From positions 20,088,001 through 20,152,000 of the forward strand of contig NC_043003.1 of assembly GCF_006345805.1 (NCBI RefSeq): DNA of 64,000 nt, given 5' to 3'. The translations under genes and the position numbers were made by a program. This document shows, piece by piece, positions 3,039-21,016 of the stretch. The notes under the pieces are model-generated. The model did no database searches, was not told where the DNA came from, and saw only the letters and a program-made list of their open reading frames with translations. Source of the DNA: Octopus sinensis (lineage: Eukaryota). Within the stretch, counting starts at the first letter, position 1, and each line of letters begins with the position of its first letter.

Positions 3039-3694
3039 TAGAAATTCAAATCCAAAATTTGAACGAGGCAACCAGCGTTTCCCACATTGATGGAATGACA
3101 TCATCAGTCTTCAATTTCCAAGTTTACAACTGGCAAAAAGAAAAAGAAACAAACAAACGAAAAACAGAAAAGAAGAAAGAAAAGGAAAAAGAATATTTAA
3201 TCAAACAGCTTTGTGCAAATATGATGAAATTCCACTGTCATTTTATTCATCCTCTAGGGCGTAATGTTAATTACTCATAAACATATATCTGTGGTATTTT
3301 GAGCAGTGAAAGTGTAGCAGATTCAGAATATTGTCTGAAAATATGCACTTTCAAGTCTTTTCAAAATTGCAGCCGTTTGATGTAAAACGTTCGACAAATC
3401 CTGTCGAATTACTGTTATTGTGACTGACGTCATATCTGCGTCTATTGAATTTTTTGTTTAATTGTTCTGTTATACAAGCAACATAAATTGTATGACTTCA
3501 TTAAACAAAAGATTCCTTTTACTCTCTGCCTTTATTTCTCTTTTTCTCTATCACATGACTTTGTAAATGATCAACCTGGTGTGTTTAATTTTAATGACCT
3601 ACCAATGTATACAGTGCGTTTCTCTGCCCTAAGTGTAAGAAAGCAACTCGGCAAGAGATGGAAAGAAGATAATAATGAAAATTATAATAATAAT

Positions 3695-4206
3695 ACAGTA
3701 CCAGGCAGTGGCACTCATGGCTTCTGATCTTAACTGATTGGAAGTGTTATCACGTAAATTATTTTGTCTTGGTATAAAAGATGGGCTACAGCAAATATTC
3801 TGCTCAATAACACATATTTGCTTGTCAGTTGTTTGACCATAACCAGTTGAGCATGCCCTTTGGTGGCACGCGGTATGTACATCTCTGATTACGAGCAGAA
3901 GTAGTGAGGGAGCAAAGCTAGCCGTGTTGAGTGGAATTCTTGGGGGTTTGAATAATTCACCTTTGGAAACATGGGTGTTTCGTTCAACATCCTCAAACAA
4001 CCCCTATTCAAGGACCCTTTGAGCGGAATGTGCTACTCGACCTGAAGAAAATTCTATCTAGGCTCCACCTGTTTATGTCGCGCACATATGTTTGTGATGC
4101 ACGTATCTGGAGTACCCTTATCAGATGGGTAGTTATGATAAGTATACTGGGCTTCGTATATTTTACTCCAGTGTCACTTTGATGGTATGCACTGCTCTCT
4201 AAGTCA
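3695..4206 (+). mobile_element. Family E: ~500-bp non-coding interspersed repeat embedded in (AAT)n, copy 1
   Basis: Highly similar to 4551-5037 (cagtaccaggcag...gctctctcactcaataat); both ends run into (AAT)n. Confidence 0.85.
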
Positions 4207-4301
4207 ATAATAATAATAATAATAATAATAATATTAATAATAATAATAATAATAATAATAATGGTAATAATAATAATGATGATGATGATGATGATGATGA
4301 T

Positions 4302-4478
4302 AGGAATCAATAGGGGCAGCAATAAGGATGGAGCACTTTCAGAAAGCAGCATTGCTTGGAACCGCTCGAATACTCCGGATGGTGCTCGAAAAGTAAAGTG
4401 TTACTTTAGTTCACTGGTAGTGACCAGCTGACACTGTAATACATCTCCAGCGCTAGAAGCTGTACAAAGGAAAGAAAA
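4302..4478 (+). mobile_element. 5'-truncated 3' end of an R4/Dong-like REL non-LTR retrotransposon
   Basis: 4304-4396 translates ESIGAAIRMEHFQKAALLGTARILRMVLEK*, the typical R4/Dong C-terminus, followed by a short UTR and (AAT)n. Confidence 0.8.
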
Positions 4479-4510
4479 TAACGATAATAATGATAATGAT
4501 GATGATAATA

Positions 4511-4550
<40 letters not shown>

Positions 4551-4555
<5 letters not shown>

Positions 4556-5037
4556 GCCCTGATGCAGTACCAGGCAGAGGCCCTCATGGCTTCTGATCTT
4601 AACTGATTGGAAGTGTTATCATGTACATTGTTTTGTCTTGGTATAAAAGATGGGCTACAGCAAATATTCTGCTCAATAGCACAGATTTGCTTGTCAGTTG
4701 TTTGACCTTAACCAGTTGAGCATGTCCCTTAGTGGCTGACGATATGTGCATCTCTGATCACGAGCAGAAGCAGTGGGGGAGCATCATAGCCATGTGTTGA
4801 GAGGAATTCTTTGGGGTTTGAATAATTCACCTCTGGAAACATGGCTGTTTCGTTTAACATCCTTAAACAATCCTTATTCAGGGACCTTTTGAGCAGGATG
4901 GGCTACTCGACCTGAAGAAAATTCTAACTGGGCCCCACCTGCAAGGTCATGTGCTGTTTATCTTGATATGAGATCACCATGTTGCGCACATATGTTTGTG
5001 ATGCATGTGCCTGGGCATGCAATGCTCTCTCACTCAA
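4551..5037 (+). mobile_element. Family E repeat, copy 2
   Basis: Aligns with copy 1 with different internal deletions; flanked by (AAT)n. Confidence 0.85.
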
Positions 5038-5125
5038 TAATAATAATGATAATAATAATAAATGATGATGATGATAATAATTCCAGTTCACGTTATTCGA
5101 ATTGAAACTCGTTTGCTTATAAATA

Positions 5126-5154
5126 TTTCTGTTTTCTTTCTTTTTAGGTGAGTA
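5126..5154 (+). promoter_or_regulatory. Candidate recursive splice site (3' acceptor fused to 5' donor)
   Basis: tttctgttttctttctttttag|gtgagta: ~20-nt pyrimidine tract plus AG directly followed by consensus GTGAGT. Confidence 0.4.
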
Positions 5155-5642
5155 TAGAAGCTTTGAATCAATTTCACTGGAGTTATTCTTTATATTATCT
5201 TCATGGACAGAAGTGTGAGTAAAAAAAGTTATCTCTCATAATTGTCATTGTGTGTGTGTGTGTGTTTGTGTTATGTGTAAATGTAGTTTCGACATTCATT
5301 GTTCCTAACAACATATGAGGGAAGATAAGCAAAAGCTAGTCGATAAAATCTTTTGCATTTGAGGCATAGTTGCGAAACACTCCAGCATATACCCACTCAC
5401 AAATTCATGCATTCACATGCACGCGCACAAGCAAGCACAAGCACAAACCCGTGTATATGGCTGTATACATGTCTTTTGGTCTTTAGGCAGGATATTTGTC
5501 GTACTGTCATTTATATTATTATATTATATTTTATTTTGCAAGATAATTGATGTGAAAAAAATATGTGTTGAAACAGACGTTGCATCTTTGGCGGGTCATT
5601 TTGCCAACAAGAAACACAAGCACTGATTATATTCCACTTCCT

Positions 5643-14537: not shown

Positions 14538-16331
<1,794 letters not shown>

Positions 16332-18878: not shown

Positions 18879-19246
18879 CATACATACATACATACATACA
18901 TACATACATACATACATACATACATACATACATACATACACAGAACGTTACTTATTAAGTTATAAAGCTTGTTTTCACTGGCACTTGTTTCGCTTGACAT
19001 CCTGTTCGATCTGTGGAATAAGCCTTCGGGTGAAACTTTAAGTCTCAATGAAAAGCAATTTTATTATAAAGCTAAGAGACTTATAATATTGCATTCCTCC
19101 TCAATAAATGTTCCGTTATATTTCTTAAAATTCTAATATACATATAACATCAATCCCCAACTAAATGTTTACTCATACATATATATGCATATACATTTGA
19201 ATGCACACAGACATATACTTACATGAACATTCATATACATATATAT

Positions 19247-19295
<49 letters not shown>

Positions 19296-19315
19296 TATAT
19301 ATTTATTATATAGAA

Positions 19316-19369
19316 GGAGCTTCTACAGGACTAGAACTGTTTCATTCAAGAGAAATCTTCAGGAAGCTC
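19316..19369 (-). ncRNA. Type I hammerhead ribozyme (mirror copy)
   Basis: GAGCUUC-CUGAAGA-uuucucuugaau-GAAA-CAG-uucuaguc-CUG-UA-GAAGCUC. Confidence 0.8.
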
Positions 19370-19377
19370 AATCTTCA

Positions 19378-19432
19378 GGAGCTTCCTGAAGATTTCTCTT
19401 GAATGAAACAGTTCTAGTCCTGTAGAAGCTCC
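19378..19432 (+). ncRNA. Type I hammerhead ribozyme with intact core
   Basis: Stem I GGAGCUUC/GAAGCUCC (8 bp), CUGAAGA (19386-19392), short stem II uuc/gaa, GAAA (19405-19408), stem III ACAG/CUGU, GUA cleavage triplet ending at 19424. Confidence 0.82.
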
Positions 19433-19512
19433 TTCTATATAATAAATTAATTTTACTCTGCTATGTATTGAGTACCTTATTTACTGTGGTTAACCCCGAA
19501 TCAACCCGGGAC

Positions 19513-19543
<31 letters not shown>

Positions 19544-19625: not shown

Positions 19626-19828
19626 AAGGCAGCGAGCTGGCAGAGACGTTAGCACGCTGGGCGAAATGTTTAGCGGTGTTTCCTTTGTCTTTACGTTCTG
19701 AGTTAAAATTCCGCCGAGGTCGACTTTTTTCGGGGTCAATAAATTAAGTACCAGTTACTTACTGAGGTCGATTTAATTGACTGGCCCCCTACCGCCAAAT
19801 TTCGGGCCTTGTGCCAAGAGTAGAATAG
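19626..19828 (+). mobile_element. SINE family B (short-tail form)
   Basis: aaggcagcgagctggcagagacgttagcacgctgggcgaaatg...ccgccgaggtcgact. Confidence 0.88.
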
Positions 19829-20787: not shown

Positions 20788-21016
20788 TATTTCTTTACTA
20801 CCCACAAGGGGCTAAACACAGAAGGGACAAACAAGGACAGACAAACGGATTAAGTCGATTATATCGACCCCAGTAAGTAACTGGTACTTAATTTATCCAC
20901 CCCGAAAGGATGAAAGTCAAAGTCGACCTCGGCGGAATTTGAACTCAGAACGTAACAGCAGACGAAATACGGCTACGCATTTCGCCCGGCGTGCTAACGT
21001 TTCTGCCAGCTCGCCG
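20788..21016 (-). mobile_element. SINE family B, young monomer
   Basis: Near-exact reverse complement of 13573-13806. Confidence 0.93.

What the first reader, a model, noticed from the sequence alone, without database searches (positions are those of the whole stretch)
19301..19447. Perfect palindrome built from two complete hammerhead ribozymes, one per strand
Seen: 69-bp arms are exact reverse complements, and each encodes a type I hammerhead with intact CUGAAGA and GAAA, a 7-8-bp stem I, a 4-bp stem III and a GUA site. Known: Penelope-like elements carry hammerheads in their pLTRs and often have inverted ends. Inference: a very young insertion. Any read-through transcript on either strand holds the ribozyme preceded by its own antisense, so a 69-bp hairpin should compete with the catalytic fold. 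That would make a self-silenced ribozyme and a potential ADAR/Dicer substrate.
Basis: partly seen in the sequence, partly recalled or inferred. Interest (0 to 1): 0.8.

Follow-up and report, generated by a model that had tools for sequence, protein, structure and literature searches.

The report
Penelope transposon's twin run-off cDNA palindromes
This ribozyme palindrome is one of about 1,200 tiny leftovers of a Penelope-like jumping gene in this genome, likely formed when two short DNA copies ran off the capped start of the element's RNA and were joined head to head, which would record how this poorly understood transposon class inserts.

Summary
The palindrome is real (69-bp exact arms, 9-nt spacer), but it is not a one-off and it extends to 19520. 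It is the shortest product of a young Hydra-clade Penelope-like retrotransposon (RT plus C-terminal GIY-YIG) inserted in (TA)n. Exact patterns find 558, 590 and 56 such mini-palindromes in three subfamilies. Nearly every insertion has one arm ending near +68 and one near +141 of the element's 5' region (47 of 48 minis; 18 of 18 long inverted pairs). Inner ends stop at the hammerhead's first base: 0 of 96 go further upstream. In intact copies a TATAAATG box lies at -29, and an untemplated G sits next to +1 in 14 of 16 informative junctions, the known mark of a copied mRNA cap. Best reading: both strands of a cut target prime reverse transcription near the RNA's 5' end, both cDNAs run off the cap, and end-joining fuses them. 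The hammerhead fold is conserved but minimal (native stem I 6 bp, not 7-8), and cleavage leaves almost no genomic trace. The proposed self-silenced ribozyme is thermodynamically right but a likely by-product; transcription of this site is not shown.

The parts
19239..19300 (.). (TA)n target microsatellite, left flank (start approximate)
   Evidence: the same flank type at the loci
19301..19368 (-). Short arm: element positions +68 to +1 (+1 = 19368), holding a whole minimal type I hammerhead; inferred cDNA primed at the AT-rich site near +68
   Evidence: 68 of 68 identical to L096
19369..19369 (-). Untemplated G (read on the minus strand) next to +1 of the short arm; inferred copy of the mRNA cap
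   Evidence: natural base is T; G in 14 of 16 untemplated cases
19370..19379 (+). Junction insert AATCTTCAGG, a local repeat of 19354-19363; inferred end-joining patch, overlapping the right arm by GA or A
19380..19430 (+). Minimal type I hammerhead, +1 to +51: stem I 19380-85/19425-30, core CUGAAGA 19386-92, U-U at 19393/19404, stem II 19394-96/19401-03, GAAA 19405-08, stem III 19408-11/19420-23 with palindromic CUAG loop, predicted cut after 19424
19380..19520 (+). Long arm: element positions +1 to +141 (pLTR plus tail; the last ATAT is shared with the target); inferred cDNA primed near +137 to +141
   Evidence: continues into the 5' UTR and ORF in L096
19517..19541 (.). (TA)n target microsatellite, right flank

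Best explanation
The palindrome is a minimal insertion of a Hydra-clade Penelope-like retrotransposon, likely made when both strands of a cut (TA)n site primed reverse transcription near the 5' end of the element's RNA and the two short cDNAs, having likely run off the capped end at the hammerhead's first base, were joined head to head. Shown: family membership, (TA)n target, one arm ending near +68 and one near +141, inner ends at +1, an extra G at +1, a TATA box at -29 in intact copies, varied junctions with microhomology or local inserts, both arms from one subfamily. Inferred: +1 is the transcription start; the G is the copied cap; each arm is a separate cDNA; the AT-rich ends (AUAAUAAAU, ACAUAU) pair with the target; host end-joining fuses the 3' ends. 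Longer inverted copies would arise the same way when priming occurs at a 3' pLTR, or when a run-off cDNA jumps back onto RNA. The two hammerheads are passengers that were read through uncut; this copy has no TATA box and is likely inert unless a host transcript crosses it.
For: 558 + 590 + 56 head-to-head minis. 47 of 48 main-subfamily minis have exactly one tailed arm; outer ends cluster at +141 (41 of 44) and +68 (29 of 44, range 62-72 apart from one mis-parsed locus); 18 of 18 long inverted pairs obey the same rule. Inner ends: 55 of 96 at +1, 0 of 96 upstream. Genome-wide, 705 arms reach +1 without the natural T before it and 1,391 read through. TATAAATG starts at -29 in most natural copies listed, with the same spacing in diverged subfamilies whose spacer differs. 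Untemplated base next to +1: G in 14 of 16 (P about 1e-5 against 1/3); next to +2: T in 7 of 10. An extra G from capping is reported for full-length L1 insertions (PMC11702581, passages). Four loci show a copy starting at G+1 or G+2 joined behind 5' UTR or ORF-start sequence that exists only downstream of the 5' pLTR (L213, L235, L233, L201): run-off followed by a jump. All 100 rows shown carry the minority loop variant on both arms. In vitro, a Poseidon PLE nicks and extends both strands, starts at two internal sites and uses uncut RNA (PMC11167929, parts 1-2).
Against: No RNA 5'-end data: only contigs could be laid, and they listed no joints. 24 of 47 main junctions use 4-nt palindromic microhomologies (17 AGCT, 7 CTTC/GAAG) that could create a hot spot by themselves. 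In the AUCU-loop subfamily 4 of 46 ends lie 2-3 nt upstream of +1 and 3 more are ambiguous. 2 of 16 untemplated bases are A. The 16 informative cases come partly from loci picked as non-perfect junctions (17 of 50 and 23 of 50 loci shown). L115 has two long arms. The in vitro paper found priming without homology and without a strand difference in start site, whereas here each insertion uses one site of each kind and both ends resemble the target. One RNA read twice cannot be told from two RNAs of one donor.
Confidence: 0.75

Rival explanations
1. Ordinary 5' truncation with a microhomology hot spot: cDNAs start at the 3' pLTR and are trimmed and joined at the self-complementary AGCT or CTTC/GAAG, with no RNA end at +1.
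For: 24 of 47 main junctions use those 4-nt overlaps; 5'-truncated inverted copies are standard for PLEs (PMC8557442, passages); a few ends lie upstream of +1 in one subfamily.
Against: Junctions without microhomology also stop at +1 or +2 and carry G (14 of 16); 0 of 96 main ends lie upstream although the pattern allowed 14 more bases; jump junctions carry 5' UTR sequence; TATA spacing is kept across subfamilies.
Confidence: 0.12
2. Self-priming or snap-back: one strand folds back on a palindrome and copies itself, as proposed for head-to-head Penelope repeats in Adineta (PMC3846280).
For: Both arms always share subfamily variants in the rows shown; palindromes lie at the junction.
Against: 17 of 47 junctions are perfect with no loop, which an intramolecular 2-bp hairpin could not prime (inference); the long arm is the trimmed one in 15 of 25 asymmetric junctions, and a short first strand cannot template a long second arm; both arms carry their own extra G at L109 and L197.
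Confidence: 0.07
3. A non-autonomous palindromic element (MITE- or retrozyme-like) that moves as a unit, or is kept as a self-silenced ribozyme or dsRNA source.
For: High copy number; a few junction types recur; the hairpin is very stable.
Against: Many different junctions, with either arm trimmed, and the same spectrum arising in each subfamily; a continuum of arm lengths up to kilobases; no TATA box in the minis; no transcript evidence.
Confidence: 0.04
4. Assembly fold-back artefact of long reads.
For: The assembly shows many one-base indels between copies; the junction was not seen in independent data (contigs only, laid on L096 and not on this locus).
Against: Flanks are unique and not mirrored; arms differ in length by a fixed rule; junctions carry untemplated and locally templated bases.
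Confidence: 0.02

Closest known systems
Hydra clade of Penelope-like elements (Craig et al. 2021, PMC8557442, section 11 and passages read)
   Same: Single ORF with RT and C-terminal GIY-YIG; RW(R), DKT, CxCx5C, CxxC..E..N..CxH motifs; hammerhead in the pLTR; (TA)n target; inverted 5'-truncated copy and a tail at one end only.
   Different: Element is longer (about 5 kb from +1, with a simple-repeat-rich 3' UTR); the tail is about 70 nt rather than 30-40; the passages read describe no class of minimal palindromes ending at the RNA start.
Anolis Poseidon PAc in vitro mechanism (Frangieh et al. 2024, PMC11167929, parts 1-2 of 4 read)
   Same: Both target strands cut and extended in AT-rich DNA; two internal RT start sites bounding the tail; uncut RNA is the template.
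   Different: There the starts lie inside the ORF, lack homology to the target and do not differ by strand; here they lie in the 5' UTR, resemble (TA)n, and each insertion uses one of each. Joining of the two cDNAs was not addressed in the parts read.
Opposite-strand minimal hammerhead pairs in Schistosoma Cercyon PLEs (Cervera and de la Pena 2014, PMC4209133, parts 1-2 of 4 read)
   Same: Minimal type I hammerheads in pLTRs, pairs on opposite strands, palindromic helix III loop, expected to work as dimers with low activity.
   Different: Those pairs were about 100-700 bp apart and were put down to truncation; here they abut, at a fixed base. G10.1-C11.1 is replaced by U-U.
L1 twin priming and cap-derived G (PMC11702581, passages read)
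   Same: Second target strand primes internally; inverted pieces joined by microhomology; extra G at full-length 5' ends.
   Different: L1 inversions lose or repeat only 1-10 bp at the joint; here both cDNAs copy the same region to the RNA end, and there is no poly(A) tail.
Non-LTR retrozymes (10.64898/2026.07.22.740005, part 1 and passages read)
   Same: Non-coding, derived from PLE pLTRs, type I hammerhead.
   Different: Retrozymes are head-to-tail tandem units; this locus is a head-to-head pair. Tandem arrays of this family do exist elsewhere (L234, L242).

Membership tests
Hydra-clade PLE | Single ORF, RT followed by C-terminal GIY-YIG endonuclease | tested here: met
   L096 ATG 3440 to 5577 (one frameshift); L081 open frame with YRDDG and LVY..YI(G/R) motifs read by eye. 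Pfam gave no RT or GIY-YIG hit; 839 homologues at E<=1e-10, mostly 600-750 aa among the 120 listed.
Hydra-clade PLE | RWK-type N-terminal motif and DKG changed to DKT | tested here: met
   IRWRSFFF and PSDKTKN in L096; definition
Hydra-clade PLE | CxCx5C linker; CxxC and CxH around conserved E and N | tested here: met
   CNCPDKTTC; CDLCISESLE...LLNKISEHSPNCMH
Hydra-clade PLE | Insertion into (TA)n and hammerhead in the pLTR | tested here: met
Hydra-clade PLE | Element shorter than 3 kb (stated as general, not strict) | tested here: not met
   L096 runs from +1 at 3257 to about 8343
Hydra-clade PLE | RT tree placement with named Hydra references | not tested
   No named reference sequences were in hand
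Type I hammerhead ribozyme | Core CUGAnGA, GAAA and NUH, conserved across copies | tested here: met
   74 natural copies: 0 of 592 variant cells in core, 5 of 1,110 in stems, 47 of 1,110 in N7 and loops, 105 of 1,628 upstream (copies are related, filter-fixed columns left out)
Type I hammerhead ribozyme | G10.1-C11.1 pair closing a stable stem II | tested here: not met
   U19393-U19404 over a 3-bp stem
Type I hammerhead ribozyme | Match to an Rfam hammerhead model | tested here: not met
Type I hammerhead ribozyme | Self-cleavage as monomer or dimer | not testable with these tools
   Stem III dimer predicted at -12.8 (T variant) or -15.2 kcal/mol (A variant) against -1.4 for the hairpin; at most 7 of 48 copies deviating after GTA are real breaks (by eye)
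Non-LTR retrozyme | Two or more head-to-tail units, each with a hammerhead | tested here: not met
   Head-to-head pair at this locus

The most novel reading that the evidence does not exclude
Penelope-like elements replicate by a two-ended strong-stop mechanism: two RT-endonuclease molecules prime on opposite strands at two fixed sites near the cap, and the pseudo-LTR and its upstream promoter are rebuilt when a run-off cDNA jumps to the RNA's 3' repeat, as in retroviral first-strand transfer. The hammerhead sits at +1 because its palindromic stem III loop pairs two RNAs from one donor, acting as a dimerisation signal rather than as a nuclease. The minis are failed transfers.
Probability: 0.25. 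Interest if true: 0.85.

Novelty: new variant of a known kind. Interest (0 to 1): 0.6.

Why it matters
[quoted passage not shown] About 1,200 near-identical minimal insertions give single-base positions for both priming sites and for the RNA's 5' end, so the mechanism can be tested directly with a 141-nt template. If transcribed within host RNAs, these perfect hairpins would also be a dispersed source of double-stranded RNA, which was not tested.

Tried and rejected
Rfam: no hammerhead family matched; the miRNA hits there only reflect the perfect hairpin. Pfam: no useful hit for the ORF, and none for 119 window frames of 62 aa or more, so no host gene was identified; short exons would be missed. 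PDB sequence search: 0 matches. Metagenome scan for related loci: 64 pattern matches, none confirmed, so generality outside this genome is untested. Sequencing runs: no RNA holder listed on record (the query lay in the 3' UTR); laying four contig sets on L096:3116-3800 gave no joints and cannot show starts or strand, so it is not used as evidence. Hammerhead cleavage as the source of the ends: rejected, since arms read through GUA and at most 7 of 48 deviating copies are breaks, against about 2,500 cores. Splicing as the source of the +1 boundary (a YAG lies at -1 to +2, and PMC4209133 notes an intron ending at helix I in Drosophila Penelope): rejected, because only one G is shared and the next base varies among T, A and G (inserts). 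RT stalling at the structure: would be expected on the 3' side of the fold, not after it (inference). One search had a wrong pattern and wrong coordinates; neither is used. Earlier findings of this scan: none in three look-ups. Literature searches for the run-off reading showed no paper stating it, but the library lacks most subscription journals, including Arkhipova 2006 and Lunse 2017 (recalled, not read), and no supplements were opened.

Full report
Observation. The arms 19301-19369 and 19379-19447 are exact reverse complements around AATCTTCAG. Each holds the hammerhead core, a 4-bp stem III and GUA (cut predicted after 19424). The feature sits in (TA)n and its right arm continues to 19516-19520. 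Rfam did not recognise a hammerhead.

It is a family. The genome (G000, 2.72 Gb, an animal; a cephalopod by the recalled look of its repeats, not tested) holds 2,489 exact copies of a core 29-mer. Many lie as divergent pairs, from a few bases to over 7 kb apart. A pattern for abutting head-to-head cores finds 558 loci; two related subfamilies give 590 and 56 more (overlap of the last two is possible but absent from the rows shown). Long pairs lead into an ORF. L096 is a full-length copy: inverted arm, 3' UTR fragment, pLTR, 183-nt 5' UTR, ORF 3440-5577 with one frameshift, 3' UTR, pLTR. Its motifs (RWR, DKT, CxCx5C, CxxC..E..N..CxH) match the Hydra clade of Penelope-like elements as defined in PMC8557442 section 11. 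The window's long arm is 100% identical to L096 over 141 nt, so the insertion is young.

Outer ends. Numbering from the first base of stem I (+1 = 19380 on +, 19368 on -): of 44 parsed minis, long arms end at +141 in 41 and short arms at +68 in 29 (range 62-72; one locus mis-parsed; four loci did not parse in that script). With a better anchor, 47 of 48 have exactly one tailed arm and L115 has two. All 18 long inverted pairs examined follow the same rule. Both ends are AT-rich and merge with (TA)n; the natural sequence after the tail begins ATAT. This fits two fixed priming sites, one used on each target strand. A Poseidon element cuts and extends both strands from two internal sites in vitro (PMC11167929).

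Inner ends. In the main subfamily 55 of 96 inner ends lie at +1 and none upstream. Genome-wide, 705 arms reach +1 without the natural T before it, and 1,391 read through into the natural upstream sequence; the read-through arms examined spread their ends over kilobases. Intact copies carry TATAAATG at -29, with the same spacing in subfamilies whose spacer has diverged. Where the base next to a +1 end cannot come from the element, it is G in 14 of 16 cases; next to +2 ends it is T in 7 of 10. The two extra subfamilies entered this count as chosen non-perfect junctions (17 and 23 of the 50 loci shown each). An extra G from the mRNA cap is reported for L1 (PMC11702581). In the window C19369 is such a base, and 19370-19379 repeats 19354-19363, a typical end-joining patch. 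Against this reading: 24 of 47 junctions use palindromic 4-nt overlaps, 4 of 46 ends in one subfamily lie 2-3 nt upstream, and no RNA 5'-end data were available.

Two cDNAs from one donor. The long arm is the trimmed one in 15 and the short arm in 10 asymmetric junctions; 17 of 47 junctions have no loop; L109 and L197 carry G on both arms. Snap-back of one strand (PMC3846280) fits this poorly. All 100 rows shown (of 222 matches) carry the minority loop variant on both arms, so both arms come from one donor, through one RNA read twice or two RNAs.

Jumps. The last genome search found 50 copies in which the pLTR runs into the 5' UTR. Of 35 outside tandem arrays, 14 have the natural promoter upstream and 21 do not. 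Four (L213, L235, L233, L201) show a copy that begins with G at +1 or +2 joined behind 5' UTR or ORF-start sequence: the cDNA likely ran off the 5' end and jumped back onto RNA. [quoted passage not shown]

The ribozyme. Variation among 74 natural copies spares the core (0 of 592 cells) and stems (5 of 1,110) but not loops and N7 (47 of 1,110) or the upstream spacer (105 of 1,628) (copies are related). The fold is therefore likely under constraint in donors. It is minimal: stem I 6 bp, stem II 3 bp closed by U-U. The catalytic fold is 0.4-2% of the predicted monomer ensemble, and a native hairpin over +43 to +61 hides the cut site; the stem III loop can pair two molecules. Only 48 copies deviate right after GTA, and at most 7 are real breaks, so templates were essentially uncut, as in vitro for PAc.

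Verdict. A real, young, stereotyped by-product of a known transposon clade. The architecture is known in outline (PMC8557442; PMC4209133 saw opposite-strand pairs 100-700 bp apart). The pile-up at a TATA-positioned, G-marked +1 and the one-short-one-long rule were not found stated in eight literature searches, within an incomplete library and without supplements. Confidence in the twin run-off mechanism 0.75; interest 0.6.

Noticed in passing
L234 (G000:C16:42874200-42878700) and L242 (G000:C9:87419300-87423500): Palindromic tandem arrays of this element's 5' region: about 247-nt units (-33 to +214, each with TATA box and hammerhead), five or more per side, and about 420-nt units. They look like retrozymes arising from the PLE, with hammerheads in tandem.
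   Followed up: partly
L048:2501-2540: The upstream copy of a partial tandem ends exactly at the predicted cleavage site (CCTGTA) and joins a T-rich 3' UTR repeat; one of very few possible traces of cleavage.
   Followed up: partly
L151 (G000:C1:102136900-102137800): Long and short arms are not joined but flank about 230 nt of unrelated DNA and (TA)n.
   Followed up: no
L007, L018, L020: Solo arms with a G between (TA)n and +1; found with a query that began with that G, so biased.
   Followed up: partly
L012: Insertion lies in the centre of a roughly 100-nt inverted-repeat host sequence.
   Followed up: no
window 19632-19782 and 20853-21014: Inverted pair of a dispersed repeat, 88-91% complementary, about 1.1-1.2 kb apart; recalled as an octopus SINE-like repeat, not tested.
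   Followed up: no
window 15000-15299 and 15792-16091: Direct duplication, 96% identical, spacing 792 nt.
   Followed up: no
G000:C7:20196753-20197346: Another ORF-bearing copy of this family about 45 kb beyond the window's right end.
   Followed up: no
L087, L094, L095: Remnants of other PLE endonuclease families at 33-58% identity lie beside copies of this one.
   Followed up: no
L098: A 437-aa open frame of a LINE-type reverse transcriptase (by eye) lies downstream of the element's ORF.
   Followed up: no
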